Part shown: positions 2,732 to 58,690 of the stretch, piece by piece
Layout: the number at the start of each line of letters is the position of its first letter
How positions within the stretch are numbered: position 1 is the stretch's first letter
Source of the DNA: Chiloscyllium plagiosum
Lineage: Eukaryota
Reading direction: 5' to 3'
DNA: 64,000 nt
NCBI RefSeq assembly: GCF_004010195.1
Contig: NC_057749.1
Coordinates: 6,903,416 to 6,967,415, forward strand
Notes under the pieces: model-generated
The model's input: the letters and a program-made list of their open reading frames with translations, nothing else
Told to the model about the DNA's origin: nothing
Database searches by the model: none
Made by a program: the position numbers and the translations under genes

Positions 2732-2980
2732 AGTTGAAAAATGAGGACTGCAGATGCTGGAGATCAGATTCGAAAAGTGTGGCGCTTGAAAAGCACAGCA
2801 GGTCAGGCAGCATCTGAGGAGCAGGAGAATCGACATTTCAGGCACAAGCCCTTCATCCTGATAAAGGGCTTATGCCCAAAGTGTCGATTCTTCTGTTCCT
2901 CGGATGCTGCCTGACCTGCTGTGCTTTTCAAGCGTCACACTTTTCGACTCTGATCTCCAGCATCTGCAGTCCTCATTTCT
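2732..2980. mobile_element. Palindromic head-to-head PLE pseudo-LTR pair (family 1) with two degenerate hammerhead motifs
   Basis: ~120-bp inverted arms meeting at cccttcatc|ctgataaaggg; TSD agct(a/g)tcataactag at 2717-2731 and 2981-2995. Confidence 0.8.
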
Positions 2981-3998
2981 AGCTGTCATAACTAGGATAG
3001 GCTCAATGGTTCTGAAGAATACTCCTGGACACTTTGTATGTTTGTATCCTTTGAAATAAATACCTAGTCATAAAGAAACACGTATGAGGTAATGAAGCTG
3101 CTTGCTAAGATCACAGAGATGGAATATAACTGTGATTACATTGCGTGATTTGACTTGAAGTAATTTGAACTTTGAACAAGCCGTGTACATATTATTGGTT
3201 TCTAACATTTATAAGATCAGACATTTCCTTCTTTCTTGCGACATATCCTCAAGGCTTTCTTGCAACCTTTCGAACAGCGAGGGATCATGCATGAATGTAT
3301 ACTGGGAGGGGGAGCGCAGGAAGGACCCACACACATTGAAAGAAAGGATGCAATCTGCACACTACACCCTTTGCGAACCGTTCCAAAGACACTCAACAGA
3401 AGTCTGCTCAATTTCACCAGCCTTCATCTCCCTGCAGAAGTGTAAAGTCCACTTTGGGATAGATTTGTGGTTGCGTCAAGAATACTTCTAAAAGAGGCAT
3501 GCATTTATTGCTGAGGAAAAGAAGGGCCACATGACAAGAGTGTCTTTTCAAGTGTCCATTATGTTAGTCTCTCTTCTACCTGGTGTAAGGAGATACTTAT
3601 CTCATACCTTACCACAGTTTCTTAATATTACAGTCTTGGTATGGTTCCAGAACAACTGGACCTTGCTCCAGTCTGTCGTAGTTGAATTGAACATAGATTA
3701 GATTTAGATTACTTACAGTGTGGAAACAGGCCCTTCGGCCCAACAAGTCCACACCAAGGGTAACTAAACATGTTCTTTTTCATGGAATCCCAAACTGTCA
3801 CTGAGAAAGTGCCTTCTTGAACATTTTCGCACAATCAATCTCTAAGCCATTTCATAGGCTGGTGAAGGGGTCACCCACACTGCTGTAGGTCTGCAGTTAC
3901 ACATTGACCCTGGTGAGACTGCAGGTCTTCTTCACTCAAGGAGTCAGGTTACTTTTTGTATAACAATCATAACACCATCAGTGAGGTTAGTATTCAAT

Positions 3999-4127
3999 CC
4001 TGAAAATGTGTTGCTGGAAAAGCGCAGCAGGTCAGGCAGCATCCAAGGAACAGGAGAATTGACATTTCGGGCATAAGCCCTTCCTGCATCTGCAGCATCT
4101 GCAGCATCTGCAGTCCTCACTTTCTCC
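3999..4127. mobile_element. Short inverted PLE pseudo-LTR insertion (family 1)
   Basis: Minus arm contains gggcttatgcccgaaatgtc; plus arm ends gcagtcctcactttctcc; TSD tagtattcaat at 3988-3998 and 4128-4138. Confidence 0.75.
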
Positions 4128-4369
4128 TAGTATTCAATTCTAGTTAGTAATTGAACCCAGTTGCTGTGCAACATTCCCATGAAGCTGTCTGCGCAGCTCC
4201 TCCGCCATGTGATCGGCATGGTGTCATGGATTGTGGCACTGACTCCCGGTTCCAGAGGTAGTAGCTGTGCAGGAATCGCAGGGATCCGTGCAGAAGAAAA
4301 ACTATTTAGATATAACGCTGCTGCGGATTTCTACTTGTGTCCTAGGGCATCTGGCTGACTAGTCCAGTG

Positions 4370-6090
4370 TCATTATTTGATTTATTTACCATCAGGTGCA
4401 CCTTGTTACAAAAATGCTGTGAAAAGTGTTGTATAGTCTCGTCACTCCAGCACCATCTTAAAACACAGAAAAATAAACCATAACATGGAATATGAAGGGA
4501 AAAGAATGAAGAAGCAATGAAAAAGTATGCAACTTTACAGTCCTTGTGGAGTGCTCCACCATAGGCTATGGGCCTAGTGACCAGGCCCATGTCCCCTTCA
4601 CCGACACTGGAATGAAAGTTACCCACTCTTCAGTGCCATCTTGCCTCCACTGACACCCTCGCCTCTCGCAGTCCTCAATAGATCTCGCCACTGATGCTGC
4701 CCGGTACTGTACCAGTCCAAACTCGATTCCGCTGTTGCCATGAAACCACTTCGGGCCCACCTCACCGATGCAGCAGCTGCTGATGCTGCCAGGTCTCATG
4801 CTGGACCCGAACATGCCAACACCACCATCTCCATGAATCTGCACTGGACACAGATGCTGCTGGAATTCCAAACTAGCGTCCACTACAGCAGACATGCGTC
4901 AGTGTTAGGAGCGCCTCAACAATGAAGAAGCCGCTGGGAACCCAAACTCACTTCCAACATCACTGCCATGAGTCCATGCTGCTGGTCCCACTCGGGTCCA
5001 TGTTGCTGGGCCCACTCCAGTCCGTGCTGCTGGTCCCACTCCAGTCCGTGCCACTGGGGCCCACTCCAGTCCGTGCTATTGGGGCCCACTCGAGTCGTGC
5101 TGCTGGGCCCCACTCGAATCCATGCTACTGGGCTCCACTCGAGTCCATGCCTGCTGGGCCCACTCCAGTCTGTACTGCTGGGCCCACTCCAATCCATGCT
5201 GCTGGGCCCACTTGAGTCTGTGCTGTTGGCCCCACTCCAGTCGGTGCCACTTGGGGCCCACTACAGTCCATACTATTGGGGCCCACTCGAGTCGTGCTGC
5301 TGGGCCCCTCTCGAGTCCATGCTGCTGGGCCCACTCCAGTCCGTGCTGCTGGGCTCCACTCCAGTCCATGCTACTGGGCTCCACTCAAATCCATGCTGCT
5401 GGGCCCACTCCAGTTTGTACTGCTGGGCCCACTCCAATCCATGCTGCTGAGCCCACTTGAGTCTATTCTGTTGGGCCCACTCCAGTCTGTGCCACTGGGG
5501 CCCACTCCAGTCTGTACTATTGGGGCCCACTCGAGTCGTGCTGGTGGGCCCCACTCAAGTCCATGCTGCTTGGCTCCACTCCAGTCCATGCTGCTGGGCC
5601 CACTCCAGTCCGTGCCACTGGGGCCCACTCCAGTCCGTGCTACTGGGGCCCACTCGAGTCGTGCTGCTGGGCCCCACTCGGAGTCCATACTACTGGGCTC
5701 CACTCGAGTCCACGCTGCTGGGCCCACTCCAGTCTGTACTGCTGGGCCCACTCCAATCCATGCTGCTGGGCCCACTTGAGTCTGTGCTGTTGGGCCCACT
5801 CGAGACGGTGCTGCTGGACCCACTTGAGTCTGCGCAGCTTGGCCCACTCGAGTCCAGTGCTGCTGGGCTCACTCAGGTCCATGCTGCTAGGCCACTCGAG
5901 TCAGCACTGCTGGGCCTATTCAAGTCCGTGCAGCTGGGCCTACTCAGGTCCACACTGCTAGGCCCACTTGAGTCCGTGCTACTGGGACTGTTCACTGCCA
6001 CCGATGTTATTGCCGTGACCTCTGAAATGCAGAGCTTCAGCAGCACCATCACAGCTTCGCGGGGCGTCCATGCCAAGGCAGAGAAAGACA
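4370..6090 (-). mobile_element. Putative non-autonomous retroelement with a Rex1/Babar-like 3' tail, enclosing the minisatellite
   Basis: Minus strand ends acttttcacagc...gtaaataaatcaaat, resembling the Rex tail at 47070-47128; the 5' boundary is uncertain. Confidence 0.4.
4968..5990. repeat. GC-rich minisatellite, ~24-bp unit (gtccatgctgctgggcccactcca), about 42 copies
   Basis: Directly visible tandem units; 8-aa periodicity (LLGPLQSM) in the ORF track; unit length varies 23-25 bp. Confidence 0.97.
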
Positions 6091-6839
6091 GATTCTGAAT
6101 CAGTCAGGGATTCAAGTTTAATGTCGATTAGCCATGATCTCATTGAATGATGGGCTGAATGGCCTACTTCCGATCCTACATTTTATGGTCTTAAAGACTT
6201 GATCACAATCAAGGAGCAGGCTTTGTCTGAATATTTATTCGGAAACTTATAACAGCAATGGTATTCATTTGAGTAGGCTTTATGCAATCTTTTTCCAGAG
6301 ATTAGAGACTACATTATCCCATCAAGCACTGGATATCATTTGGCCCATCCTATCCATGAAATTCTCCGTCAGTACATATGAAAACAAATTTCAGTGCCTT
6401 GTCCTCTTCACCTCCCCTTATCTCTATCTCTGGTTCAAATATTTATTCATTTCTTCCTTGAAGGATAAATTAATCTTTGGCTCAACTCTGTTGGAAAGCA
6501 CCCCGCGCTGTAAGCATGTCTCTTAACCTCTCTTCATGATGATTAAAATCATGACCTTTTGTCACCAACTCACAAACAAAGGTAGACTTCCCTTAATTCA
6601 ATCTATCAAAACCTTTAGAACTAAATGAAACCGCAATTAAATCTCATTTTAGCTTTATCTTTTCCAATGGGAAACAATTACAACATTTCAAGTCTTTCAG
6701 TGTAACTATAACCTCCTATCCTCAGTAATGATCTTGCTGAATTGACGCTTCAACATCTCTTCATTTATAATATACTTTCTATTATGGCATATTGTATAAG
6801 ATCTTCCTGATCTCTTTAATCTTCTTTACGCGTTTAGGG

Positions 6840-7410
6840 AATTTAGAAGAATGAAAGGAAATTTCATTGAAGTGTACAGAAGTTGAACGGGGCTCATCAG
6901 GGTGAATGCAGGACCGATGTTTTCCTTGGCAAAGAGGAACATGGGTGTCCAGAATTGGGTGACGTACTCTCCAGATAAGATATATATCATTAGGCCTGTT
7001 AGGGCTGACATGAGGAAGAGTCTCTCTGAGGCGAATGTGATAACCACTACACTACAGAAACACCACATTCCTGATGAAGGGCCTATGCCCACAATGTCGA
7101 CTGCCCTGCTCCACGGATGCTGCCAGTGTGGCTGTGCCTTTTGACTCTGATCTCCAGCACCTGCAGTCCATGAGGAAGAATCTCTTAATCTTAGGAGTGA
7201 TGAATCTTGGGAATTCTCTATCGTAGAGGACCGCAGACATCCAATCATTGAGCATACTCAAGATAGAAATCAATAAATTGCTAATTATTAGATATTAAGT
7301 GATGCACGGATAATGCAGGGAAATGGTATTGAGGTATAAGCCACGACATGATCGAATGGCAGAGCGAAATTTATTGACTTACTCCTGCTCTTATTTCTGA
7401 AGTTCCTATG
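6840..7410 (+). mobile_element. Degenerate CR1 3' fragment with a nested PLE pseudo-LTR (7020-7168)
   Basis: RMKGNFIEVY remnant; the insert contains ctgatgaagggcctatgccc and is flanked by TSD catgaggaaga (7009-7019, 7169-7179). Confidence 0.7.
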
Positions 7411-7565
7411 CTCCAAAGTACTTTTGATTCTTGCAATGTAGCATCTAAAATGCACACAGCAAGGTCCCTGAGACACTAATGTGATAATGACCAGATCATC
7501 ATTTCTTTCCCTGATGTTGGAGGAGGGCTAAATGTTATCCAGGATTCCCCATTCCTTCTTTGAAA

Positions 7566-8078
7566 TAGAGTCATACAGCACGGAAACAGACCCTTTGGTC
7601 CAACTCATCCATGCCGACCAGACATCCTAAACTGAACTAGTCCCATTTGGCAGCATTTGGTCCATATCCCTCTAAACCCTTCCTATTCATGAACACACCC
7701 AGATCCTTTTTAAAAGTTGTGACTGTATCTGCCTCCAACACTTTCTCCAGCAGCTCGTTCCATACATGTAATACCCTCAGCATTGAAAAGTTGTCCCATA
7801 GGTCCCTTGACCATCTTTCTCCTCTCACCTTAGACTCATGCCCTCTAGTATTGGACTCCTCTACCCTGGGGAAAATACCTTGACTATTCACCCTATCCAT
7901 ACCCCTCATGATTTTACAAATTTCTATAAGGTCACCCCTCAGCCTCCAATGTTGCAGGGAAAAAAAAACCCAGCCTATTCAGCTTTCCTATAGCACAAAC
8001 TTCCCAATCCTAGCAATATCCTTATAAATCTTTCTGAACCCTTTCAAATTTAACAACACCCTTCCTGTAGCATGGAGA
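7566..8078 (-). mobile_element. HER1/CR1 LINE 3' fragment
   Basis: ORF 7637..7909(-) MRGMDRVN..TRGH..WNEL..TFKK.L is the CR1 ORF2 C-terminus; tail gggtctgtttccgtgctgtatgactcta. Confidence 0.9.
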
Positions 8079-8764
8079 TCATCCACTGGAGAGCGAAGAT
8101 GGGAGATTGGTTTCATGTCTCAGCACTCTGCGTACAAAGTCTCGGTCTTACACTCTCAGTCTTTGGAAAGGATCTTGAACCTTCCAACTCAAACACAAGG
8201 ATTGAGCCACTGCTGACTCTGCCTGTTTCTTGGGGCTGAAGTAAACTCGGAGACACTGGGCTGGGATGATTCCATGACAGAAACCATTGCAAATATGGGT
8301 TGTGAAGCAAGTGGACTCCTGATGCCAAGAGATCTTTTCTCATTCTATCTTTCTCTGAGGTTGTAAACTACGAAGCCTTCAGAGGATGTGAAACAAGAAG
8401 TGACATTCAAGTGAAATACACTTAAAGGACAATTCTCATCAACTAAATCGTTTTAAAGGCCTATTTATTAGTTTAGTAAAATAAAGTAGAGTGCAGTGAT
8501 GCAATTGGTAATGCCAGTCAGGTTCAAAGCTGATGTAAACATTCTGAAGAATCTCTCTAAAACTGTGTCTCAAACTCAATCAGGTAGTAGAGAAGCAGGC
8601 TTGAAGGACGCACTGGGGTGAAGTCCGAGTATCTGTGATTATCTTTGTCGGCCGTCCTTCATGCTATTAATACTGCACATTAATTTTTGACAACCGGTTC
8701 AACCCAAATTGCGGCAAGGCCCATCTTAAAATTTATTTCGAATAAACAACCTCCAACTGTCAAG

Positions 8765-9045
8765 AGAGACTTGCATTTGTATAGCACCTTTCTTGAGCTC
8801 AGTGCATCAAAGTGCTTTGAAAAATGGCCATCTATGTCAAAGTCGGATACGCAGCATCCAATTTGCACAACGGCAAATTGTGTCACCAACGGCAATGAGC
8901 TAAATACAGGGTAATTAGATTTAAATGTGTGTTAAATATTGGCCAGCACAGCAGATAGAAAAACCCTTCTCTCCTTCTAATAGTGCCAAAGGATCTTTTA
9001 CATCCACAAGAGGGAGTAGAAGGTACCTCAGCCTAAAACTTCATC
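8765..9045 (-). mobile_element. Degenerate Deu-domain SINE (SacSINE1-like)
   Basis: Reverse complements of aaaagatcc..ggcactatt, tggccaatattta and the tail gaaaggtgctatacaaatgcaagt. Confidence 0.6.
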
Positions 9046-16011: not shown

Positions 16012-16780
16012 TGAAAACAAAAATGCTGAAAATCACGGCGGGTCAGGCAGCAGCCATGGAGAGACAGCAAGCTAACGTTTCGAGTCGAGATGACTCTTCA
16101 CTAGAACGGACATGGAGTGTAGAGGGGGCAGCATTTACAAGATAGTGGGAGTGCTGGGGGAGAGAGGATGTTGATAGCTCAGGTTAAGTGATCAGATGTG
16201 AGAATGGCAGAACAATGGTGTGTCTAACCTCCAGACTGGAAAGAGCACTGGGTTGGCGGGACAGACAAGAGGACATGGTGACCGAGAATGTAAGAAGCAA
16301 AGTTAGAGGAAAGGGAAGGAATGGGATCACAATCTGAAGGTGCTGAACTCAATATTAAGATTGGAAGGCTGTATAGTGCCAGGTCTGAAGACGAGATGTT
16401 GCTGGTCCAGTTTACGCTGTGATTTACTGGAACACTGCAGCATGACGAGGACAGACACGTGGGCATTTGAACAGGATGCTGTGGTAAGATGGCCGGACGG
16501 GAAGATCAGGGCCATGCTTGCTCATGGACTGGAGGTATTCCGCAAAGCGGTCATCCAGTCTGTGTTTGGTTTCTCCAATGTAGAGTAGGCCACATTGGGT
16601 GCAGTGAGTACAATACACAAGACTAGAGGGGGTACAGGTGAAATGCTGCTTCACCTGTTTAGGCCCTGGGAAGGTGAGCAGGGGGGAGGTGAAGGGACAG
16701 ATGTTGCACCTTCTGCGGTTAAATGGGAAAGTGCCATGGGAAGGGAGGGGAGTGGTGTTGTCGGTTAAAAAAATGGGAGT
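16012..16780 (-). mobile_element. Penelope-like element 3' fragment: GIY-YIG endonuclease remnant plus pseudo-LTR with hammerhead motif
   Basis: ORF 16424..17008(-) CNIC...HFTCTPSSLVYCTHCTQCGLLYIGETKHRLDDRFAE; minus-strand ctagtgaagagtcatctcgactcgaaacgttagc at ~16071-16108. Confidence 0.85.
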
Positions 16781-16964
16781 TTCATTATCTCTGATGTTTT
16801 CTGATGTGATTTGGACAGGGTAAGGGGTGCACCAGGCACTCCACACATCCTGCGATGATTTTCTTTGCAAATAGGAGCCTACATTGTGTACTTGAGTTAA
16901 AATCGAATGGCTGCCTAATTTATATATGTGCTCAACATGTTGCAGGGTAAGTTTAACGGCTGTG

Positions 16965-17138
16965 CTCATGACTGGATATTCAATTCCTCTATCGGCTGAG
17001 GCTACCATGAAGGACTCTCCTTCTCAACCTCTCCCCTCATCTGAGGTGTGGTGACCCTCAGGCTAAAGCATGATCAGTTGCCTCTGTCTAATGAGAGAGC
17101 AGCCCAATGGTCTGGTCGACTACAGTGACTTTACCTTT
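16965..17138 (+). mobile_element. tRNA-derived SINE family C
   Basis: ggctgaggctaccatgaaggactctccttctcaacc..ctgaggtgtggtgaccctcagg; same motif at ~24400, 31800, 41950 and 49060. Confidence 0.75.
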
Positions 17139-17986: not shown

Positions 17987-18025
<39 letters not shown>

Positions 18026-18085: not shown

Positions 18086-19075
18086 CTAAACCTATATATA
18101 ACTGTCTATATATATAAATATATAGATATGTCTTTTTCTATCTAGTTATCTACTTATATGTCTATCTCTACAATTAATTGTTTGTAGTAGACTATTACAC
18201 TGGCTCTAGCTATAGTTAATAATTTCCCTTTTTGCTGCAGCAATTGGGTGTAGCACCTCTGATGCTAACTCTGTACTTTGTATTGCCATCTTTGTCAAAT
18301 GGTATCAATAGTGCCAGTAGATATAGCAAGTGGAAGGCAAGGTGTTGTTGAGGCTGGAATTATCTCTTGTATAACATATGGTTTGCTTTCCCACCTGCAA
18401 TCTGTGTGATTCTCCATCTCCATATGAAAAAGTATATCATCGAGAAAAGCAGTTTATCAGAATACGTAAATTTGTATTTATGCCCTGCACTCGCTATTTT
18501 GTTGACCTTAATTTAAGAAGATAAAAATCTTGTGCAAGAAAAAGCCTATCAAGCTCATTTCATTCACTGCCCGTGTATGAAAGCCTTAGTTTCATGTATT
18601 TCTCCATATCTGACTGACACATCCAGTTAACCCTCCTCTGATGCTGACCCATCTGACACTGATTCTTTTCTCCCTGTCCTGGCGGGAAATAATAAACATG
18701 TTAGCACTAGTCTCATCCTTCCCCTCACAAATGAATCATGCGAACATAGGAAATAAAAGCAGGAGCAGGCCCTTCAGCCCATTGAGCTTGTTCTGCTAGT
18801 CAAACACATCCTGGCTGATCATCAATCTCGACCATTTTTACCCTACTTTCCCCATATTGCTTGATGTCATTGGTATCCATAAATCCAGTGATTTTTATCT
18901 GAAAAACAAACTGAATAGAACTTTTCTTTCTGCCTTTGGAGGCAATGGTATCAATTGTGCCAATAGATATAGCAAGTAGAAGGCAAAGTGTTGTTGAGTC
19001 CAGTATCATAACTCACATCACAGTTATAGACAACCATTAAAATAACATTAAGTATAAAATAATGGAAGAATTGGG

Positions 19076-19149
19076 TAATGACAAATATTTAAGCATATTA
19101 ATAATTGCAATGCGTTGCAATTATTAATATGCATGAATATTTGTCATTA
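19076..19149. repeat. AT-rich inverted repeat: 35-bp arms, 4-nt loop
   Basis: taatgacaaatatttaagcatattaataattgcaa-tgcg-ttgcaattattaatatgcatgaatatttgtcatta; 33 of 35 positions complementary. Confidence 0.95.
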
Positions 19150-19185
19150 GCCGATGTGTCGCAAAAGGCAGGTCTCCTTATTTTG

Positions 19186-19350
19186 GTGAAAGTGAGGACT
19201 GCAGATTAGAGTCTGGAGTGTGGTGCTGGAAAAGCACAGCTGGTCAAGCAGCATCCAAGGAGCAGGAGAGTCGACATTTCAGGCAAAAGCCCTTTATCAG
19301 GGCTTTCATCCTGAATAATGGCTTTTGCCTGAAACGTTGACTCTCCTGAG
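19186..19350. mobile_element. Inverted PLE pseudo-LTR pair (family 1), degenerate
   Basis: Minus arm ..gacatttcaggcaaaagccctttatcagg, followed by plus arm ctgaataatggcttttgcctgaaacgttgactctcc. Confidence 0.7.
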
Positions 19351-22019: not shown

Positions 22020-22760
22020 AGCAGACACATATTCCCCTCCCTTTCCTTGTCTTCCTTCCACAGATACCATTCCCTCTGGGACACACTGGTCCACTCCTCC
22101 TTCACTCCCAAACCTCCCACACCTCCCCCTTCCACCACCCCCGGGCCCACAGCACCTTCCCCTGCAATTGGTGTAACACCTGCCCATTTACCTCCTCCCT
22201 CCTCAGTAACCGAAGGCCAGGTGAAGAAACACTTTATTTGCACTTTTCAACAATCTCGCCAACTGCATTCGCTGCTCACAATGTGGTCTCCTCTACACTG
22301 GGGAAAAATGAAGCATGGACTGGGTGACCAATTCGCAGAACACCCACATTCTGCCCACAAGAAAGACCCTGAGCTTCCAGTTACCTGCCACTTCAACACC
22401 CCACCCTGTTGCCTGGCCAACGTCTCTATTCTGGCCCTGCTGCAGTGTTCCAGCGAAGCCCAGTGCACGCTGGAAGAACAACACCTTATTTTCTGCATGT
22501 GTTCTCGACAGCTTTTTAGACTCAATATTAGGGTCAACAATTTTAAGGCTTGGGTTTTTCCCATGTCCTCACCCTGACCCCCACACTCCAGGCTTTGTTA
22601 TCACCTCGTCTGCTATTACTCACTACCCATTGTTACCCAAATGTTCTGAGGAAGGGTCACCGGACCCGAAATGTAGACTCTGGTTTCTTTCCACAGAGGC
22701 TGCCAGACCTGCTGAGCTTTTCCAGCAATTTCTGTTTCTGTTTCTGGTTTGCAGTTCTTT
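22020..22760 (+). mobile_element. Penelope-like element 3' fragment: frameshifted GIY-YIG remnant plus hammerhead-bearing pseudo-LTR (family 3)
   Basis: SLWDTLVHS..QVKKHFICT..LGDQFAEH..HFNTP..EEQHLIF (ORF 22047..22577); homologous to 16012-16780. Confidence 0.85.
22643..22678 (+). ncRNA. Minimal type-I hammerhead ribozyme motif, core intact
   Basis: gtt-CTGAGGA-a-gggtc(accg)gaccc-GAAA-t-GTA-gac; stem I gtt/gac includes a U.G pair. Confidence 0.6.
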
Positions 22761-27220: not shown

Positions 27221-27858
27221 AGGCAATGGTGTCGTGATAATGTCATTGGACTAGTTATCCAGCATCGCAGGTTAACATTCTGGGAACAAAAACAGAAGTT
27301 GCTGGAAAAGCTCAGCAGGTCTGGCAGCATCTGTGAAGAGGAATCAGAGTTAATATTTCAGGTCAGCCCTTCCTCAGAATTGTTTTTGCTTCTGTTTTAC
27401 AGAACCTGCAGTCCTTTTGATTTTTATAATGTTCTGGGGACATGGGTTCAAATTATGCCATGGCAGTTGGTGAAATTTGAATTCCAGAAAAATCTGTAGC
27501 TGAAAGCTACCCTTAATGATGACCGTGTAACCATTGTAGATTATCATAAAACTCATCCAATTCATTAATGTCCTTGCAGGATGGGAATCTGTCAATTTTA
27601 TGGTCTAGCTTCCAGATGTGTCCAGATCTAAAGCAATGTGGTTGGTCCTTTACTGAACCCTGGAATTCCTGATGAAGGGCTCATGCCCAAAACATCGACT
27701 CTACTGCTCCTTGGATGCTGCCCGACCTGCTGTGCTTTTTCAGTGCCACACTTTTCAACTCTGAAATGGGCTAGCAAACCATTCAGTTCACAAACAATTA
27801 GGGTTAGACAATAAATGATGACCTACCAGTGACATCCACATCCCATGAACAAATAAAA
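27221..27858 (+). mobile_element. SINE family B with two nested PLE pseudo-LTR insertions (~27284-27425 and ~27660-27762)
   Basis: Head aggcaatggtgtcgtg..ggactag resumes at gttctggggacatgggttcaaat; tail caattagggttagacaataaatg; inserts contain ccttcctcagaa and ctgatgaagggctcatgccc. Confidence 0.75.
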
Positions 27859-28156: not shown

Positions 28157-28322
28157 GAAAGTTAAAAGTCACACAACATCAGGTTATAGTCCAACAGGTT
28201 TATTTGGAGGCACTAGTTTTTGAAGTGCTGCTCCTTCATCAGGTTGTTGTGTTGGACTATAACCTGTGGTGTGATTGTTAACTTTGTCCACCCCAGTCCA
28301 ACACTGGCTCCTCCAAATCACG
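28157..28322. mobile_element. Inverted PLE pseudo-LTR pair (family 2)
   Basis: caggttatagtccaaca mirrored by tgttggactataacctg; minus-strand ctgatgaaggagcagc. Confidence 0.75.
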
Positions 28323-28474: not shown

Positions 28475-28700
28475 GAGCAAAAACTGAAAGAACTGTGGCT
28501 GCTGTAATCAGAAACATGAATGCAAATTGCTGGAAAAGCTCAGCGGGTCTGGCAGCATCTGGTGAGAGAAATCAGAGTTAACATTCTGGGTTGAGTGACC
28601 CTTCCTCAGAGCTGACCTGAAACATTAACTCTGATTTCTCTCCACAGATGCTGCCAGACCTGCTGAGCTTTTCCAGCAATTTCTGATTTCATTTGCTGAT
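28475..28700. mobile_element. Inverted PLE pseudo-LTR pair (family 3)
   Basis: aaattgctggaaaagctcagc..cagagttaac mirrored by ttaactctg..gctgagcttttccagcaattt; minus-strand ctgaggaagggtcactcaaccc. Confidence 0.8.
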
Positions 28701-36016: not shown

Positions 36017-36234
36017 AGTTAAAAATCACACAACACAAGGTTGTAGTCCAACAGGGTTATTTGGAAGCACTAGCTTTCATAGTGCTGCTCCTTCATCAGG
36101 TGGTTGTGACCTCATGAAGAAGCAGTGCTTTGAAAGTTAATGCTTCCAAATAAACCTGTTGACTACAACCTGGCATTGTGTGATTTTTAACTTTGTCCAC
36201 CCCAATCCAACACTGGCACCTCCAAATATCACGA
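36017..36234. mobile_element. Palindromic PLE pseudo-LTR cassette (family 2)
   Basis: ~90-bp inverted arms with hammerhead-like cores at the centre; TSD caacagatttcaa at 36004-36016 and 36235-36247. Confidence 0.82.
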
Positions 36235-43829: not shown

Positions 43830-44250
43830 AGGGTTCCATAACGGGTTTTGAGAAGATTTGTAGCTCAGGTTGAGATTCTGGAAGTAGGTTTTGCTCGCTG
43901 AGCTGCTAGGTTCATTTCCAGATGTTTTATCACCCTCCTTGGTAACATCTTCAGTGGGCCTCCGGGCGAAGCACTGTTGATAAATCCTGCTTTCTATTGA
44001 TATGTTTGGGTTTCTTTGGGTCGGTGATGTCATTTCCTGTTCTTTTTCTCAGGGGGTGGTAGATGGGGTCTAACTTGATATGTTTGTTGATAGAGTTCCA
44101 GTTGGAATGCCATGCTTCTAGGAATTCTCATGCGTGTCTCTGTTTGGCTTATCCTAGAATGGATGTGTTGTCCCAATCGAAGTGGTGTCCTTCCTTATCT
44201 GTATGTAAGGATACTAAAGAGAGAAGGTCATGTCATTTTGTGGCTATTTG
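43830..44250 (-). mobile_element. Penelope-like element 3' fragment (family 4) with degenerate hammerhead motif
   Basis: Minus translation SLVSLHTDKEGHHFDWDNTSILG*AKQRHA*EFLEAWHSN..SINKHI (end of PLE endonuclease); ctgaagatgttacc..gggtgataaaacatctg at ~43918-43957. Confidence 0.75.
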
Positions 44251-47989: not shown

Positions 47990-48190
47990 GTGACGTGGAG
48001 ATGCTGACGTGTGGTGGACAAAGTCAGAAGCCACAGGTTACCAGACTATAGTCCAATAGGTTTATATTGAAATCACAAGCTTTCGGAGCACCGCTCCTTC
48101 GTCAGGTGAAAGCTGTGATTTTTGTGAAATTTGTGATTTCAAATAAACCTGTTGGACTATAATCTGGTGTTGCGTGACTTCTGACTCTGA
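47990..48190. mobile_element. Inverted PLE pseudo-LTR pair (family 2-like)
   Basis: ccagactatagtccaataggtttat mirrored by ataaacctgttggactataatctgg. Confidence 0.75.
48073..48109 (-). ncRNA. Minimal type-I hammerhead ribozyme motif, core intact
   Basis: Minus strand tcac-CTGACGA-a-ggagc(ggt)gctcc-GAAA-g-CTT-gtga; 4-bp stem I; palindromic AGCT stem III. Confidence 0.65.
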
Positions 48191-49270: not shown

Positions 49271-49623
49271 TGCATGTTTGCGAATTTAATGGTAATGGTT
49301 TGATAATCAATCACTCATCAGGGGACACTTAAAACTGTAAAACACATTTTAAGTTATGAAGCAGGGGTGTCACAGCAAAGCAACTGGATTCTGTGAGTGT
49401 AGCTTCCAAAAACAAAGCAGGAATACTGATTAAGAGCTTATGCTCAAAATGTAGATCCTCCTGTTCCTCAGATGCTGCCTGACCAGCACGACACTTCTTG
49501 ACTCTGATCTCCAGCATCTGCAGGCCTCACTTTCTCCTCGATAAACTGACAGGCAGTGTCGGAGCCACATATACACGCAGCACAAGGCATCCTTGAAGGT
49601 TTCCTAAAGGGAAGGTTCAAATA

Positions 49624-52594: not shown

Positions 52595-53212
52595 GCAATT
52601 ACAGATATTGCTGGAAACTGACCTAATTGAGGTTTATAAAAACATGAGGGGTATGGATAGGATAAATAGACAAAGTCTCTTCCCTGGGGTGGGGGAGTCC
52701 AGAACTCGAGGGCATAGGTTTCGGGTGAGAGGGGAAAGATATAAAAGAAACCTAAGGGGCAACTTTTTCATGCGGAGGGTGGTACGTGTATGGAATGAGC
52801 TGCCAGAGGAAGTGGTGGAGGCTGGTGCAATTGCAACATTTAAAATATGTTGGGAGGGTATATGAATAGGAAGGGTTTGGAGGGATATGGGCCGGGTGCT
52901 GGCAGGTGGGACTAGATTGGGTTGGGATATCTGGTCGGCATGGACAAGTTAGACCAAAGGGTCTGTTTCCATGCTGCACATCTCTATGACTCTATGAACT
53001 CTCAGCAGGTCTGGCAACATCTGTGGAGAGAAATCAGAGTTAGCATTTTGGGTTGAGTGACCCTTCCTCAGAATGGAAGTAGGTGATCGTTCTGAAGGAG
53101 GGTCACTGGATCCAAAACGTTAACTCTGATTTCTCTGCATAGGTGCGGCCAGACCTGCTGAGATTTTCCAGCAATTTCTGTTTTTGTTTCAGATTTCCAG
53201 CACCCACAGTTA
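52595..53212. mobile_element. Inverted PLE pseudo-LTR pair (family 3), left arm split by a CR1 insertion
   Basis: attgctggaaact|..|ctcagcaggtctggc..gacccttcctcagaa, then gttctgaaggagggtcactggatccaaaacgttaactc..ttttccagcaattt. Confidence 0.75.
52619..52996 (+). mobile_element. HER1/CR1 3' fragment
   Basis: DLIEVYKNMRGMDR..SRTRGHRFRVRGER..WNELPEEVVEAG; ctctatgactctatg tail. Confidence 0.93.
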
Positions 53213-53788: not shown

Positions 53789-54449
53789 CATGATTTGGAG
53801 GATCCGGTGTTGGACTGGGGAAGACAAAGTTAAAAATCACACAACATCAGGATATAGTCCAACAGGTTTATTTGGAAGCATTAACTTTCAGAGCGCTGCA
53901 CCATCATCAAGTGGTTGTAGAGTATAAGATCGTAAGACACAGAGTTTATAGCTCATGTTTACAGTGTGATGTAACTAAAATGATATATTGAAAAAGACCT
54001 GGATTGTTGAAGTCTCTCATCTTTTAGAATGACCATGTTGGTTTTAGTTCTTTCGAATGTAAATCCCAGAATTTATTTAAAGTTACATTCCAAGTGACCT
54101 TCAACAATAGGTGCCATGTCTGCTCAGATAATGCATTGAAGGTGTGAGGTTAAAGTCTATCTGTTTGTCCCCCAGTCTTCAGACTGAGGCTCCCAAGCAC
54201 TGAGGATGTCACCTAGACAGGGGACGAAACGTCTGCAACACAAATTCCCAGCTCGGTGAACAGAACCACAACAAACACTGATTCTATTTCTAAAAAAGGG
54301 ATTTACAGAATCTGTAAACGTTTGCTATAAATTCTGTGTTTTACGATCCTATACTCCACAACCACCCGATGAAGGAGCAGCACTCCGAAAGCTAGTGCTT
54401 CCAAATAAACCTGTTGGACTATAACCTGGCTTTGTGCGATTTTTAACTT
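53789..54449. mobile_element. PLE family-2 insertion with ~140-bp inverted termini and a nested family-4 pseudo-LTR
   Basis: 53826-53964 is the reverse complement of ~54312-54452; TSD tgtactgttgga at 53777-53788 and 54450-54461. Confidence 0.82.
54197..54236 (+). ncRNA. Minimal type-I hammerhead ribozyme motif, core intact, GUC cleavage triplet
   Basis: gca-CTGAGGA-t-gtcacct(agac)aggggac-GAAA-c-GTC-tgc; predicted cleavage after C54233. Confidence 0.72.
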
Positions 54450-55263: not shown

Positions 55264-57783
55264 GAAAGCCCGAATGCTTTATCAAATAATATAATTTGTA
55301 AGGACTTTCTTAAAGCAAGAGAAAGAAGTAGTGAGGCAGCGAGGTTTAAGGAGGAACCCCCCCAGATGAGGCCCATGCTTCTATTGGGTCTTACATCTCC
55401 CACCTGGAAAAATACAAAAATGTCAAATGCCAAAAGATAATCGGTCAAGCTTATCACATGGCTCACTTCTGCTCGCTTGACACATTTAACCTCACACCTT
55501 CAATGCATTGAAGAATATCTTCAATGTTTGTGTCTTTTCTGAAAGACTTGGGAGCTTGAGGGATTTTCATTTCCCATTGCCATCTGGTCAATCAGATTTG
55601 AGCTAACCAATCTATACCCTTCAACACTTGCCCAATAAATTGAAGCGATTATTTGAAGATTGGCATTTTGTACTTGACCTGATTGTGCAAAGTGAACAGC
55701 TTCAAGAACATGTCCCTCTTTTCAGCAACATTGAACGATTGTACTACCCAATAACTACTCCCAACTACCTGGTGTTTTCTTGTTTGACTGTCCTCCCGCT
55801 CCATGATTCTCTATCTAGATAGCTCATTATTTAAAGAAAATGGTCTGGAGGAAAAGTGGGACATTTGTTTAGTTGGGAAATAAGGGTGGAAGATTATGGA
55901 TTCAAGTCACAAGGGAAGTATCAATTAATTCGAACCTTGCTTTTTCTTTGTTCTCATTCCACCACACGACATATTCCTGCTTTCTGACAAAAGATCCCAC
56001 AGATAGCTAAATACCTGAAGGTTCCTCTTCAATGTTGGGTGACACATGCACATTCACAGAACTGGAAACCACCAACAAATTTGGTAGTTGTAGGAGGGAC
56101 CCCAAGGGAAATGGTGAAGCAATAATCAGAAGACACCAAAGATTTGCATTTCTCAGCCTGAAGCTTTAGCAAGGAGATTGAGAGTTAAGCTGAGAAGGGA
56201 CACAATTACAAAATTCTGTGAAAAACCAGTCAGAGTAGGGTTCTGCACGATGACTAGAGATTGCTGCGTGAGCAGAATGCACAAGGATTTGGTTTCGTGA
56301 GCAGATCTGAACCAGCATGCAGTTGCTTGATGGAGTTGGCACTCTGTAGTTTGGCAGAGGCAGTCAAGGTACCAGACGCAGCTGGTACTCGCTTGACAGC
56401 AGGTCGAACTGACTGCAATTGGATGAGATTGGCAGACAAGGCGTTTGGCTGAATGGGCAGCATCAGCAGCTGCAGTTGGCACCTATTACCAGAAGCACCA
56501 CAATCATCAGATGCCATTGGCACTCCTGCATTTGACAGTGATATCACCAGACACAAGGTGCCTGATAGCAACAGAAGTTACACAAGATGCAGTTGGCATA
56601 AATGGCACACATACTGTGCACCAAGTGGTGCAAGTACAAATGCCACAGTGATCATGTGAGAAACTGGTCTTTCACATGGCCTGCAACATATCAACATTTG
56701 TTGTTTAAACAGAGAAATAAAGAAAGTCCATAATTCACATTTTGCACATACCTCCTGTATTTTGTAACATTCCACAGAACTTAAACAGAAGCAATATTTG
56801 AAAAACAAAACATTCCCATTGTTAGATAAAATACTAATTGATTAGCAGTGAATGTTGCAACAGTTGCTAGTAAAACAATACTTGCATTTCTATGGCACCT
56901 ATTAATAACAACTTTTAAGTAGAAAGGCAAACTTTGAGATAACAGTTGAAAGAATGACATGTCAAGGTTTCATATTTTAAAACAAATGATTTAAAATGCT
57001 CTTTATGTGGACAACTTATACTTTAAAGTCCCCATTGAACTTTTAGCATAAATCATGGTGATACATTACCTCGCCCCTTAAGTGGGAAATACATCATTTG
57101 AAAGTGAATCAAAAATCATTCCCAGCTCTCAATGGCTTGCTTCCTTTATTTTAACTAGCCGAGTGAGTAGTTTGTGAATTCAGAACAGATTCACTATGTG
57201 AAAGTTACATTGGTGATTTTTTTCCCACTTGTCCGACTTTCCTTGGTTTCTTGAATCCTTATGAACTTGGTCTCTTTAATCTGAGCACAGTGAAAGACTG
57301 GCTGACTCTTCCTCCTCCTGTTTTCTCTCTTTCAGGTGACTACACAGCCCAAACCAACTGCTATTTGTGTGTCACAAAATCATTGCTTTAGATGGAAGTG
57401 TCATTAGAGATAGAGAGATAATGAGCATTGAACTTAATCTGAAGCCATCACTTCTCAGGCAATGAGCATCGTTGAATAAAGTCTACTTGGTAACCTCAGC
57501 CAGTATTAGAACGGAAACCATGCCACAGGCATCACCAGTTGTCCAGCTAACTGAGCTAACTGATCCTCTATACATATGTAAATATATACAGAGGGAGAGA
57601 GAGAGAAAGTATTATTTTAATTGTGCAAATATTATTCATGGCCAAAATATCTTCTGGAAAATCCTGCCAGAAGTGTACTGTAGTACAACATCATTATGGA
57701 ATAGCTACAGGATTAGCTCAGAATGACGATCTTCCTCATTCCCATTTAACTTTCTCAAATGTCAACACTGCCACATTGGCATT

Positions 57784-58100
57784 ACACAGCATGGTGGCTC
57801 ACTGGTCAGTACTGCTGCCTCACAGTGCTAAGGACCTGGGTTCAGTTCCACTGTTGGGTGACTGGGTGGGAGCTTGCACGTTTTCCCCTGAGTCAATACA
57901 GGTTTCCTCCCACAGTCCAAAGATGTGCAGGTTAGCTGGATTGGCCATGCTAAATTGCTCCTAGTGCTCAGGGATGCGCAGGTTCGGTGAGTTAGCCATG
58001 AGAAATGTGGGGTCACTGGATGTGGGTGGGATGCTCTTCGGAGGGTCAGGGTAGCCTCATTGGGCTAAATGACCTGCTTCCATGTTGTTAGGATTCTATG
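57784..58100 (+). mobile_element. HE1-type SINE (diverged)
   Basis: gtggctcactggtcagtactgctgcctcacag head; ctcccacagtccaaagatgtgcagg. Confidence 0.82.
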
Positions 58101-58349
58101 ATACACCTTTTAGCTGGCAGAACCTCTGCTGAATGCTTCAATCCCAATGTGATGCGATCACCATATCAGATTAGAACATCCTTTGGTGCTCTCTGTCCAA
58201 ACACCAGTGTGGTTTTCTGGTCAGTTGGTACTGCCTCGGTTATGGGCTCACTTGCGTTCCAATTCCTGAAGCACCCAGGTAGACAAATCCAACCTTTGAT
58301 AAAGAAGGACCTCAAATGTCATCATATTTTGACAGATTTAACAAGTCCA

Positions 58350-58690
58350 ATTTCAAATAACCTCCCTTCCCATCTCCTGACTCCATTCCCAGCCCCTTCT
58401 CCTCCCTTCCACTCCTCCCTGCCACCAACTGGATTAATTCCTCCCATTGACCAACCAGGTCATACCCTCTACCTGTCTTCACCCATCCCTACTTCACCAC
58501 ACTGCCACCGCCACCCCCTTTATCTGCAGCTCCCTCCACACCCCCCCCCCCCCCCCCCCCCACTCCTGAAGAAGGGTCACACCCAAAACATTGACTTCTC
58601 CACCTCCTGGTGCTGCCTGGCTTGCCTGACTGTTCTTCCAGCCTCCTGCTTGTCTACCTTGGATTCCAGCATCTGCAGTTTTTTTTTTGT
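58350..58690 (+). mobile_element. PLE 3'UTR/pseudo-LTR fragment with C-rich tract and degenerate hammerhead motif
   Basis: Poly-C at ~58540-58561, then cctgaagaagggtcacacccaaaacattgac and tail ttccagcatctgcag. Confidence 0.65.

What the first reader, a model, noticed from the sequence alone, without database searches (positions are those of the whole stretch)
2732..58690. Dense population of minimal hammerhead-ribozyme motifs from at least four Penelope-like pseudo-LTR families
Seen: about 20 or more short repeats share the layout CTGANGA + 1 nt + hairpin + GAAA + short palindrome + flank complementary to the bases before CTGA. The stems differ between families but still pair. Family 1 has stem II gggc/gccc (2858, 7070, 27669). 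Family 2 has ggagc/gctcc with stem I cac/gtg (36068-, 48073-, 54363). Family 3 has gggtc/gaccc with stem I gtt/aac (22643, 28575-, 53089). Family 4 has gtc..gac with stem I gca/tgc (54197, 43918-). A further variant has gagtc/gactc (16071-). Established: PLE pseudo-LTRs carry minimal type-I hammerheads whose very short palindromic stem III is thought to need dimerisation. Inference: fixed core boxes with covarying stems indicate a selected RNA structure. At about one motif per 3 kb, this genome would hold a very large ribozyme-derived repeat population that standard annotation misses. I cannot tell whether these shark families are already described.
Basis: partly seen in the sequence, partly recalled or inferred. 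Interest (0 to 1): 0.78.

Follow-up and report, generated by a model that had tools for sequence, protein, structure and literature searches.

The report
Penelope-element hammerhead motifs, shark genome
The window is littered with mostly decayed end pieces of Penelope-like jumping genes that each carry a small hammerhead self-cutting RNA motif, a kind of element described in 2014, here present in very large numbers.

Summary
Two covariance models built from genomic copies find 21 solid matches to the motif region (24 with marginal ones) in 64 kb. They cover 11 of the 12 named sites; the twelfth (43918-) is a diverged family-4 copy. Only 3 copies are fully intact (22646+, 48105-, 54200+); the rest are decayed, largely at CpG.

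The interpretation also holds. The five families share CUGANGA, one unpaired base, G10.1-C11.1, GAAA, a palindromic ACGU or AGCU in place of helix III, and a non-G cleavage base, while helices I and II covary. These are the published hallmarks of minimal hammerheads of Penelope-like elements (PLEs). Reverse-transcriptase/GIY-YIG coding remnants lie just upstream of the motif in families 1, 3 and 5, and by linkage in family 2. Fold-back pairs, 11-15 bp target duplications and an optional ~38-nt tail fit PLE insertion.

Genome-wide, 204,558 sites match a box pattern, against 2,734 for the control.

New here, and inferred only: a TATA box lies about 30 nt upstream of the common 5' end of the short copies. 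They therefore look like run-off cDNAs from the transcription start to an internal reverse-transcription start.

This is a known kind, and the scan already reported it on other pieces of this genome. Cleavage is untested.

The parts
2732..2980 (.). Family-1 fold-back insertion: two inverted copies (arms 2739-2857 and 2860-2978) that meet at the hammerhead boxes. It is flanked by the 15-bp target duplication AGCT[A/G]TCATAACTAG at 2717-2731 and 2981-2995.
   Evidence: I1: 119-nt arms, 92% complementary
2818..2867 (-). Family-1 hammerhead region, left arm; boxes decayed
   Evidence: (E 1.3e-5)
2850..2898 (+). Family-1 hammerhead region, right arm; CTGATAA and AAAG replace the boxes
   Evidence: (E 2.8e-7)
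3999..4127 (.). Family-1 insertion made of an inverted piece plus a direct 3' end piece. Target duplication TAGTATTCAAT at 3988-3998 and 4128-4138. The hammerhead region 4048-4093(-) lacks the first box.
   Evidence: E 7.7e-6
7063..7112 (+). Family-1 hammerhead region; CUGAUGA intact, GAAA decayed
   Evidence: (E 6.5e-8)
16067..16112 (-). Variant family 5 (stem II GAGUC/GACUC); first box mutated to CTAGTGA
   Evidence: (E 5.6e-5)
16366..16744 (-). Decayed PLE coding remnant (linker plus GIY-YIG endonuclease, residues 309-439 of P0001), just upstream of the 16071- motif
   Evidence: tblastn E 5.6e-20; Pfam GIY-YIG E 0.079, below cut-off
19259..19345 (.). Family-1 fold-back pair: 19259-19308(-) and 19303-19345(+, marginal)
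   Evidence: E 8.7e-8 and 0.067; I8
22293..22493 (+). Decayed GIY-YIG coding remnant (residues 366-432 of P0001), upstream of the family-3 motif
   Evidence: tblastn E 1.8e-7
22638..22687 (+). Family-3 hammerhead: boxes and the 5-bp stem II intact; 15.2 changed C to U
   Evidence: (E 1.2e-11)
27340..27385 (-). Family-3 copy; boxes intact, deletion in stem II
   Evidence: (E 2.2e-8)
27661..27710 (+). Family-1 copy; CUGAUGA intact, G12 changed to A
   Evidence: (E 6.7e-11)
28201..28250 (-). Family-2 (subtype with stem I CAC/GUG) copy; decayed
   Evidence: (E 1.5e-6)
28524..28682 (.). Family-3 fold-back pair. The motif is at 28568-28617(-); the partner arm 28579-28638(+) lacks the core.
   Evidence: I3; E 1.6e-9 and 0.012
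36049..36161 (.). Family-2 fold-back pair: 36058-36107(-) with both boxes exact but stem II broken, and 36108-36152(+)
   Evidence: I4; E 6.6e-8 and 6.5e-5
43915..43954 (-). Diverged family-4-like copy; G12 lost
48064..48113 (-). Family-2 hammerhead, fully intact: UCAC CUGACGA A GGAGC GGU GCUCC GAA AGCU U GUGA. It has an inverted partner in 48095-48189(+).
   Evidence: (E 1.2e-13); (I6)
49419..49466 (+). Family-1 copy, decayed
   Evidence: (E 0.002)
52997..53166 (.). Family-3 fold-back pair: 53030-53079(-) and 53084-53133(+)
   Evidence: I2; E 9.1e-9 and 4.1e-9
53869..53918 (-). Family-2 copy, decayed
   Evidence: E 7.3e-4
54177..54275 (+). Family-4 unit, with an intact motif at 54200-54237. 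Positions 54186-54275 are 97-100% identical to the 39 best other genomic matches scored (a young family).
   Evidence: (E 2.8e-5)
54358..54407 (+). Family-2 copy (U4 changed to C), 166 nt downstream of the family-4 motif on the same strand
   Evidence: (E 3.4e-9)
58558..58594 (+). Family-1/3-like copy with a deletion in stem II; preceded by a C-run
   Evidence: (E 2.5e-5)

Best explanation
**What it is.** The repeats are 3'-terminal fragments of endonuclease-positive Penelope-like retrotransposons (PLEs) of a shark genome. At least five families are present. Each fragment carries the minimal type-I hammerhead that PLEs hold beside the end of their ORF.

**Layout shown by sequence.**
- RT-linker-GIY-YIG ORF
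- 130-350 nt of untranslated sequence
- 3-4 nt forming the 5' strand of helix I
- CUGANGA, then one unpaired base
- helix II of 4-6 bp, always opening with G10.1-C11.1
- GAA, then ACGU or AGCU, with no loop III
- the cleavage base H17 (C, U or A), then the 3' strand of helix I
- about 75-125 nt of tail that ends the insertion, with no poly(A)

**How it most likely works (inferred from the literature, not tested here).**
1. The four-base palindrome can only form helix III between two copies. The ribozyme would therefore cut as a dimer, or with help from the element's protein as shown for the anole Poseidon element, 3' of H17.
2. New copies are made by target-primed reverse transcription that starts inside the RNA, about 75-125 nt 3' of the ribozyme. 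This explains the fixed 3' end and, in family 4, the two alternative 3' ends about 38 nt apart.
3. Priming on both DNA strands explains the fold-back pairs.

**My own inference.** A TATA box about 30 nt upstream of the modal 5' end of the short copies marks the element's transcription start, immediately 5' of helix I. Most copies would then be run-off cDNAs from that start to the internal reverse-transcription start. They carry no promoter and decay in place.
For: **Motif hallmarks.**
- Alignments of 90 distinct genomic copies plus the window variant were examined.
- On the 62 family 1/3/4/5 rows, 80.6% of 551 cells form standard pairs, against 12.6-50.7% when partners are slid.
- 6 of 10 pairs change on both sides (64 cells).
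- The covariation score is 0.287, against at most 0.076 for slid partners; 0 of 500 shuffles reach it.
- The 10.1-11.1 pair is G-C in 52 rows, G-U in 9 and other in 1, of 62.
- Family 2 has GGAGC/GCUCC, UCAC/GUGA and AGCU.

**Link to PLEs.**
- P0001 is a 486-aa protein. Pfam gives RVT_1 at residues 1-120 (E 0.0077) and GIY-YIG at 354-386 (E 2.5e-4). Both are below Pfam's cut-offs.
- P0001 matches family-1 loci directly upstream of the motif: L005 residues 23-486 (E 4e-92) and L010 residues 1-370 (E 2.7e-78).
- It also matches window 16366-16744(-) (E 5.6e-20) and 22293-22493(+) (E 1.8e-7).
- Family 2: upstream homology extends at least 907 nt. A decayed endonuclease piece in L066 has 7,490 first-look relatives. 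One of them, L092, matches P0001 residues 145-411 at E 1.9e-19.

**Insertion signatures.**
- Target duplications of 15 and 11 bp.
- Of 90 sampled family 1-3 copies (one not assessable, so 89 classed), 32 have an inverted partner within 100 nt, 45 are solo and 12 are long.
- Family 4 has two 3' ends; RNA reads run on into the longer one.

**Abundance.** 204,558 matches to the pattern, against 2,734 for the reversed control.

**Transcription-start idea.**
- Column identity upstream of CUGA stays high only to -5 (family 1), -3 (family 3), -6 (family 2) and -27 (family 4).
- TATA-like heptamers start at -34 to -37 (family 1, 4 copies), -34 (family 3, 1 copy) and -53 (family 4, 5 of 5 copies that reach that far). 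In family 2 one was seen by eye at about -35.
- Seven solo copies bounded by target duplications start 0-21 nt before CUGA.

**Literature.**
- PMC4209133: main text read (parts 1-2 of 4).
- PMC11167929: main text read.
- PMC8557442, PMC2377424 and PMC6765202: passages read.
Against: - No cleavage was or could be tested. The published in vitro activity of metazoan PLE minimal hammerheads is low (PMC4209133).
- In the anole element, ribozyme mutants did not affect insertion, and no RNA-seq reads began at the cut site (PMC11167929).
- Rfam's hammerhead models find nothing, even at E<=10.
- Single-copy folds are not more stable than shuffles in the hammerhead fold: z = -0.90, 0.08 and -0.93. The one significant fold (z = -3.22) is a different pairing.
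- Most copies have lost a core base; only 5 of 24 in the window keep both boxes.
- Family-1 helix I is only 2 bp plus a mismatch.
- Family 4 has no ORF link.
- No full-length element with two pLTRs was recovered. Of 150 scored family-1 tails, none runs on into a long open frame; the longest is 193 aa.
- Pfam does not recognise the decayed window remnants at its cut-off.
- One family-2 long copy (L091) lacks the 27-nt core altogether.
- The transcription-start reading rests on a few long copies per family and on spacing alone. The laid RNA reads showed no pile-up of ends. D. virilis Penelope has a TATA-less promoter (PMC2377424).
Confidence: 0.9

Rival explanations
1. The short units (motif plus tail, about 100-160 nt), above all the young family 4, are separate non-autonomous, SINE-like or retrozyme-like elements. 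They would be mobilised in trans by PLE enzymes rather than arising as by-products of autonomous PLE RNAs.
For: - Family 4 shows no ORF link.
- The 39 best other matches scored (of 861 first-look candidates) are 97-100% identical over 90 nt, except one at 94%.
- Half of the sampled family 1-3 copies are solo units with a sharp 5' end.
- The 2026 preprint 10.64898/2026.07.22.740005 (abstract and passages read) argues that animal retrozymes derive from PLE pLTRs.
Against: - Long copies of families 1, 2 and 3 run without a break from the ORF remnant into the same motif and tail.
- Family-4 long copies extend at least 110 nt upstream.
- The short units lack the TATA box, so they could not sustain a lineage.
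- No head-to-tail arrays of one family occur among the window hits.
Confidence: 0.2
2. The conserved hammerhead-like module is kept for something other than self-cleavage. Candidates are a binding or positioning signal for the element's protein, a 5' leader or promoter-proximal element, or a start of translation. On this view the copies never cut.
For: - Published activity is low (PMC4209133).
- In the anole element, insertion was unaffected by ribozyme mutants and no reads began at the cut site (PMC11167929).
- Naiad and Chlamys PLEs thrive without hammerheads (PMC8557442).
- One family-2 long copy lacks the core.
- No pile-up of RNA ends was seen here.
Against: - The invariant bases are exactly the catalytic ones, while N7, the stems and the loops vary freely.
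- H17 is never G in any family's majority sequence.
- The palindrome is kept through a double change, ACGU to AGCU.
- Anole C3G and G8C mutants lose cleavage, and the double mutant regains it (PMC11167929).
Confidence: 0.25
3. The fold-back repeats are miniature inverted-repeat DNA transposons, or chance motif matches, and are not retroelement fragments.
For: - Several copies are near-perfect palindromes.
- Rfam assigns weak microRNA-hairpin hits to such palindromes, for example 19265-19344.
Against: - Target duplications differ in length (15 and 11 bp).
- The two arms are copies of one oriented unit with a fixed 3' end and a variable inner end.
- Many copies are single-armed.
- Long copies continue into RT/GIY-YIG coding sequence.
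- The pattern excess over control is 75-fold genome-wide.
Confidence: 0.02

Closest known systems
Minimal hammerhead ribozymes (min-HHRs) of metazoan Penelope-like elements (Cervera & de la Pena 2014, PMC4209133; Lunse, Weinberg & Breaker 2017, recalled and seen only as reference 134 of PMC6765202)
   Same: - Type-I order.
- CUGANGA and GAAA boxes.
- An unpaired base between 9 and 10.1.
- G10.1-C11.1.
- No loop III, with palindromic 15.2-16.2.
- Short helix I.
- Many covarying consensus families per genome.
- Mostly single or oppositely oriented copies from truncated elements.
- The lamprey entry in the paper's supplementary alignment even shares stem I UCAC/GUGA with family 2.
   Different: - Host: no cartilaginous fish appears in the main text or in the one supplement file that could be searched (file 1 was not searchable).
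- Helix II here is 4-6 bp, against 7-8 bp reported for schistosomes.
- Numbers: about 2x10^5 box-intact sites here, against about 2,000-9,000 min-HHRs per genome reported there. The search patterns differ, so the figures are not strictly comparable.
Poseidon element PAc of Anolis carolinensis (Frangieh et al. 2024, PMC11167929)
   Same: - The hammerhead lies at the pLTR/ORF junction.
- Insertions end at an internal reverse-transcription start roughly 90 nt 3' of the cut site.
- There are two adjacent start sites, giving an optional tail.
- Both DNA strands are cleaved and extended, which fits the fold-back pairs seen here.
   Different: - The shark ORFs carry a CX4CX2C linker before GIY-YIG (seen by eye in P0001 and L005). 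The literature assigns this linker to the Neptune/Nematis clades, not to Penelope/Poseidon (PMC8557442 passages).
- Nothing biochemical was tested here.
Drosophila virilis Penelope promoter region (Schostak et al. 2008, PMC2377424)
   Same: A promoter in the pLTR, with the transcription start a short distance upstream of the hammerhead. In D. virilis the start lies 46 nt before a 75-nt intron, and that intron ends at helix I.
   Different: - That promoter is TATA-less (Inr plus DPE) and has an intron.
- The shark families show a TATA-like box about 30 nt before the inferred start, and no intron was seen.
- The shark transcription start is inferred, not mapped.
Animal non-LTR retrozymes (de la Pena and co-workers, PMC7229834 listing only; Li, Clavereau & Pollet 2026 preprint)
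   Same: Type-I hammerheads with a short palindromic helix III, likely derived from PLE pLTRs.
   Different: Retrozymes are head-to-tail arrays that yield circular RNAs. In this window the copies are dispersed or inverted, and no same-family tandem pair occurs.

Membership tests
PLE minimal hammerhead (min-HHR) | Catalytic boxes CUGANGA ... GAAA in type-I order | tested here: met
   This is the majority sequence of all five families. Both boxes are exact in 5 of 24 window copies. Genome-wide there are 204,558 pattern matches against 2,734 for the control.
PLE minimal hammerhead (min-HHR) | One unpaired nucleotide between A9 and 10.1 | tested here: met
   It is A in families 1, 2, 3 and 5, and U in family 4. 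The column is nearly invariant within each family.
PLE minimal hammerhead (min-HHR) | Conserved G10.1-C11.1 pair | tested here: met
   G-C in 52 rows, G-U in 9 and other in 1, of 62. Family 2 also has G-C.
PLE minimal hammerhead (min-HHR) | No loop III; positions 15.1-15.2-16.2-16.1 palindromic, so helix III needs a second copy | tested here: met
   ACGU in families 1, 3, 4 and 5; AGCU in family 2. Dimer formation itself was not tested.
PLE minimal hammerhead (min-HHR) | Helices I and II kept through compensatory changes between families | tested here: met
   6 of 10 pairs change on both sides, and 80.6% of cells are paired against at most 50.7% when slid. Caveat: there are only about five independent lineages, and cells count sequences, not events.
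PLE minimal hammerhead (min-HHR) | Lies in the terminal repeat of an element that encodes RT plus GIY-YIG | tested here: inconclusive
   Adjacent to the 3' end of the ORF in families 1, 3 and 5, and by linkage in family 2. Not shown for family 4. No element with both repeats was recovered.
PLE minimal hammerhead (min-HHR) | Self-cleavage 3' of H17 | not testable with these tools
   H17 is C, U or A in the family majorities. The laid RNA reads showed no pile-up of ends, which is no test.
Rfam hammerhead families (Hammerhead_1, _3, _II, HH9, HH10; names recalled) | Score at or near the family's gathering threshold | tested here: not met
   No hammerhead hit at gathering score or at E<=10. My inference is that these models include a real helix III, which the minimal form lacks.
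Endonuclease-positive Penelope-like element | RT followed by a C-terminal GIY-YIG endonuclease in one ORF | tested here: met
   P0001 has RVT_1 at residues 1-120 and GIY-YIG at 354-386. Both are just under Pfam's cut-offs. L005 matches residues 23-486 at E 4e-92.
Endonuclease-positive Penelope-like element | Inverted 5'-truncated partner copies, an optional 30-40 bp tail, and target duplications of variable length | tested here: met
   32 of 89 sampled copies have an inverted partner. There are 6 fold-back pairs in the window. Family-4 3' ends lie about 38 nt apart. Target duplications are 15 and 11 bp.
Endonuclease-positive Penelope-like element | Partial tandem organisation giving pseudo-LTRs | tested here: inconclusive
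   None was seen in the window or in the 104 loci. The sampling was aimed at short copies.
Neptune/Nematis-type PLE | CX2-5CxxC motif in the linker before GIY-YIG | tested here: met
   CHRRNCKTC in P0001 (print) and CLPKKCNTC in L005 (print), read by eye. No phylogeny was made.
Non-LTR retrozyme | Head-to-tail arrays of hammerhead units | tested here: not met
   Window hits are dispersed or inverted. The only close same-strand pair (54192+ and 54358+) joins two different families.

The most novel reading that the evidence does not exclude
In these shark PLEs the hammerhead forms the very 5' end of a TATA-driven transcript. Helix I begins within about 5 nt of the start in families 1-3, and about 25 nt after it in family 4.

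The bulk of an estimated 10^6 genomic copies would then not be randomly truncated elements. They would be complete run-off cDNAs of the 100-160 nt between the transcription start and the element's internal reverse-transcription start. On this reading the element's 5' leader behaves as a promoter-less, dead-on-arrival mini-retroposon. It has seeded about 2x10^5 still box-intact ribozyme motifs. Family 4 is young enough (the best-scoring copies are 97-100% identical) to suggest that the process is still running.
Probability: 0.4. Interest if true: 0.5.

Novelty: new member of a known kind. Interest (0 to 1): 0.3.

Why it matters
- It extends the PLE minimal-hammerhead class to cartilaginous fish.
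- It shows a very large population: about 2x10^5 sites with intact catalytic boxes, one per 17 kb. Extrapolating from this window gives on the order of 10^6 decayed copies. Any RNA-motif scan or repeat annotation of shark genomes has to account for this background.
- The young family 4 and the intact family-2 copies are convenient natural substrates for testing dimer or protein-assisted cleavage.
- The regular TATA-to-5'-end spacing and the fixed 3' ends offer a genomic read-out of two steps that have so far been studied mainly in vitro in one lizard element: where PLE RNA starts, and where reverse transcription starts.
- For this window itself the copies are ordinary decayed retroposon debris.

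Tried and rejected
- **Rfam** at gathering score and at E<=10 gave no hammerhead, only weak microRNA-like hairpin hits on palindromes.
- **Pfam on ten natural coding remnants** gave only a sub-threshold GIY-YIG hint for window 16427-17023(-). The identification had to come from a better-preserved database protein.
- **BLASTP of the L066 endonuclease piece against P0001** was weak (E 0.047), so the family-2 link was made through L092 instead.
- **L092** was chosen for a reported 1,403-aa open frame. It turned out to hold a run of N from base 3145, so the frame is an artefact and its 3' end could not be read.
- **Search for a 5' pLTR/ORF junction** with the 26-aa reading of the family-1 tail: 85,871 first-look candidates, but none of the 150 scored has an open frame above 193 aa.
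- **Exact-match search for target duplications** found only 7 convincing solo cases in 104 copies.
- **A mixed MAFFT alignment** put family 2 one column out of register. Family 2 was therefore modelled apart and left out of the pair count.
- **Single-copy folding** gave no significant stability for the hammerhead fold.
- **RNA evidence:**
  - No RNA holder was listed.
  - The one raw-read RNA run that laid reads (X21, poly(A) single-cell; 185 reads, 81% running on into unlike flanks) shows family-4 sequence in RNA. By the usual library convention the reads are mostly in sense: depth about 100 against about 4.
  - The reads show no pile-up of starts or ends at the inferred transcription start or at the cut site.
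  - X22 laid nothing. X1 and X3 are contigs of unproven kind.
  - This is no evidence on cleavage.
- **Papers and libraries:** Lunse et al. 2017 is not held. No Dfam or Repbase was on hand, so I cannot say whether these shark families are already catalogued.
- **A 3' splice site at the 5' edge of helix I**, as in D. virilis, was considered. Only family 3 has a pyrimidine tract followed by CAG there, so it was dropped in favour of a transcription start.

Full report
**Observation**

A looser two-box pattern gives 14 matches against 6.2 expected. A strict descriptor with a paired stem II gives 3 sites, against 0.33 expected (maximum 3) in 100 dinucleotide shuffles.

Self-comparison shows that the sites are copies of a few repeat families, and that many copies are fold-back pairs. 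I built two covariance models from genomic copies and searched the window without filters.
- R1 (families 1, 3, 4, 5) gives 15 hits at E<=0.002, plus two weaker ones (E 0.012 and 0.067).
- R2 (family 2) gives 6 hits at E<0.001, plus one marginal.
- Together that is 21 solid hits, or 24 with the marginal ones, in 64 kb.
- Eleven of the twelve named sites are among them. 43918- is a diverged family-4 relative, with local score 56 against at most 37 in 500 shuffles.

Only 5 of the 24 keep both boxes letter for letter. Only three are intact throughout: 22646+, 48105- and 54200+. Much of the decay is CpG to TpG or CpA, which hits G12 and position 15.2. Rfam reports no hammerhead, even at E<=10.

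**What the motif is**

The window's genome is held (3.56 Gb). Queries from families 1, 3, 2 and 4 gave 3,339, 2,694, 2,875 and 861 first-look candidates, which are lower bounds. I took 30 loci each for families 1-3 and 12 loci for family 4.

The majority sequences are listed below; a dash marks the predicted cleavage site.

| Family | Majority sequence |
|---|---|
| 1 | (A)UUC CUGAUGA A GGGC UUAU GCCC GAA ACGU C-GA |
| 3 | (A)GUU CUGAGGA A GGGUC ACCG GACCC GAA ACGU U-AAC(U) |
| 2 | UCAC CUGAYGA A GGAGC AGY GCUCC GAA AGCU U-GUGA |
| 4 | GCA CUGAGGA U GUCACC UAGACA GGGGAC GAA ACGU C-UGC |
| 5 (window variant) | stem II GAGUC/GACUC |

These sequences show every sequence feature that Cervera & de la Pena list as emerging from PLE minimal hammerheads (PMC4209133, parts 1-2 of 4 read). 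The features are families with compensatory changes, a base between 9 and 10.1, G10.1-C11.1, and palindromic 15.2-16.2.

A pair count on 62 rows of families 1, 3, 4 and 5 gave these results:
- 80.6% of 551 cells are paired, against 12.6-50.7% with slid partners.
- 6 of 10 pairs change on both sides.
- The covariation score is 0.287, against at most 0.076 for slid partners.
- 0 of 500 shuffles reach the observed value.

Two caveats apply. The rows fall into about five lineages, so events are few. Family 2 had to be left out because MAFFT placed it one column out of register; its own stems are shown.

**Link to Penelope-like elements**

Long family-1 copies continue upstream into frames with RT and GIY-YIG motifs. 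Pfam did not recognise the decayed pieces at its cut-offs.

A database search with the L005 piece found two shark proteins. P0001 carries RVT_1 at residues 1-120 and GIY-YIG at 354-386, both just under cut-off. tblastn with P0001 gave these matches:
- L005, residues 23-486, E 4e-92
- L010, residues 1-370, E 2.7e-78
- window 16366-16744(-), E 5.6e-20, directly upstream of the 16071- motif
- window 22293-22493(+), E 1.8e-7, upstream of the 22646 motif

For family 2 the link is indirect.
- Upstream homology runs at least 907 nt.
- L066 holds a decayed endonuclease piece with 7,490 first-look relatives.
- One relative, L092, matches P0001 residues 145-411 at E 1.9e-19.

Family 4 has no ORF link. 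It does show the PLE 'tail': two alternative 3' ends about 38 nt apart.

P0001 and L005 carry a CX4CX2C linker before GIY-YIG. This is the Neptune/Nematis criterion quoted in PMC8557442 (passages read).

**Insertion anatomy**

- The unit at 2732-2980 is a 119-nt-armed palindrome between 15-bp target duplications.
- The unit at 3999-4127 joins an inverted piece to a direct 3' end piece, between 11-bp duplications.
- Insertions end at a fixed point 75-125 nt 3' of the motif, without poly(A).
- Of 90 sampled family 1-3 copies, one could not be classed. Of the other 89, 45 are solo, 32 have an inverted partner within 100 nt and 12 are long. This is by my script; by eye, 12 rather than 7 family-1 copies are long.

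This matches the published PLE picture of heavy 5' truncation, inverted partners and tails (PMC8557442). It also matches the anole Poseidon element. There, reverse transcription starts inside the RNA about 85-90 nt 3' of the hammerhead cut site (my subtraction of the reported positions), at two adjacent sites, and both DNA strands are cut and extended (PMC11167929, main text read).

**Abundance**

The pattern CTGANGANGN{10,22}CGAAAS matches 102,458 forward and 102,100 reverse sites in the genome. The same pattern read backwards matches 1,325 and 1,409.

The window holds 2 such sites, against 3.7 expected from the genome mean, so the window is typical. At 21-24 detectable copies per 64 kb, the genome would hold on the order of 10^6 decayed copies. 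That figure is an extrapolation from one window.

The 2014 paper reports about 2,000-9,000 min-HHRs per genome, found with a different descriptor.

**An added inference: the 5' end**

In copies that include the motif, identity to the family stops abruptly at -5 (family 1), -3 (family 3), -6 (family 2) or about -27 (family 4). Seven solo copies bounded by target duplications begin 0-21 nt before CUGA.

Long copies carry TATA-like heptamers that start at the following positions:
- -34 to -37 in family 1 (4 copies; one at -49)
- -34 in family 3 (1 copy)
- -53 in family 4 (5 of 5 copies that reach that far)
- about -35 in family 2, seen by eye in L091

In every family the heptamer therefore sits about 29-30 nt upstream of the modal 5' end. 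I read this as a pol II start next to helix I, and the short copies as run-off cDNAs from that start to the internal reverse-transcription start.

This fits the known promoter-in-pLTR arrangement, although D. virilis Penelope is TATA-less (PMC2377424, passages read). The idea rests on few long copies and on spacing alone. The one RNA run that laid reads shows family-4 sequence mostly in sense orientation, but no pile-up of ends.

**Function**

The four-base palindrome cannot close helix III within one copy. Cutting, if it happens, would therefore need two copies or protein help, as the literature proposes.

Nothing here tests cleavage. Single-copy folds are not unusually stable in the hammerhead fold.

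**Novelty**

The kind is known. Cartilaginous fish are not mentioned in the 2014 main text or in the one supplement file that could be searched (file 1 was not searchable). Lunse et al. 2017 could not be read. No repeat library was on hand.

This scan had already reached the same reading on three other pieces of this genome and on one other shark genome. None of those notes mention a TATA box or a transcription start.

Noticed in passing
L091 (G000:C3:87191200-87194420), near its 3' end: A long family-2 copy lacks exactly the 27 nt from C3 to 16.2. The sequence runs ...CTCTCAC|TTGTGATTTC, so the 5' strand of helix I abuts U16.1-U17 and the 3' strand. Only one case has been seen. It may be a plain deletion or a variant without the ribozyme core.
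   Followed up: no
window 54186-54275; loci L093-L104: Family 4 is very young. The 39 best other matches scored (of 861 first-look candidates) are 97-100% identical to the window copy over 90 nt, except one at 94%. This suggests recent or ongoing activity.
   Followed up: partly
window 54192-54407: Two hammerhead motifs of different families (family 4 at 54200 and family 2 at 54363) lie 166 nt apart on the same strand. This is the only head-to-tail pair in the window and results from adjacent insertions.
   Followed up: no
families 1 and 3, about 46 nt after CUGA (e.g. window 27715-27745, 22692-22725): Families 1 and 3 share the block GATGCTGCC[T/A]GACCTGCTG. Its ATG opens a frame (MLPDLL...) that stays open to the 3' end of family-1 tails. 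This may be the start of the ORF, as in the anole element. It is not confirmed, because no 5' junction was recovered.
   Followed up: partly
window 359-477: A 47-nt-armed inverted repeat (89% complementary). It draws weak microRNA-precursor hits (mir-3622 E 2.7e-4, mir-3174 E 2.1e-4), far below gathering scores. It is probably another fold-back repeat.
   Followed up: no
window 19070-19155 and 20403-20506: Two further short palindromes unrelated to the hammerhead families: an AT-rich one with 41-nt arms at 90% complementarity, and one with 32-nt arms at 91%. Both look like miniature inverted-repeat elements.
   Followed up: no
window about 19390-19450; also L096 downstream flank: A tRNA-like head of a SINE (GGCTCAGTGGTTAGCACTGCTGCC...GGTTCAATTCC) lies next to PLE fragments. 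It is a separate abundant repeat.
   Followed up: no
genome-wide: A 26-aa reading of the family-1 tail gave 85,871 first-look candidates. All 150 that were scored are significant, which shows that tails far outnumber box-intact motifs of that family.
   Followed up: no
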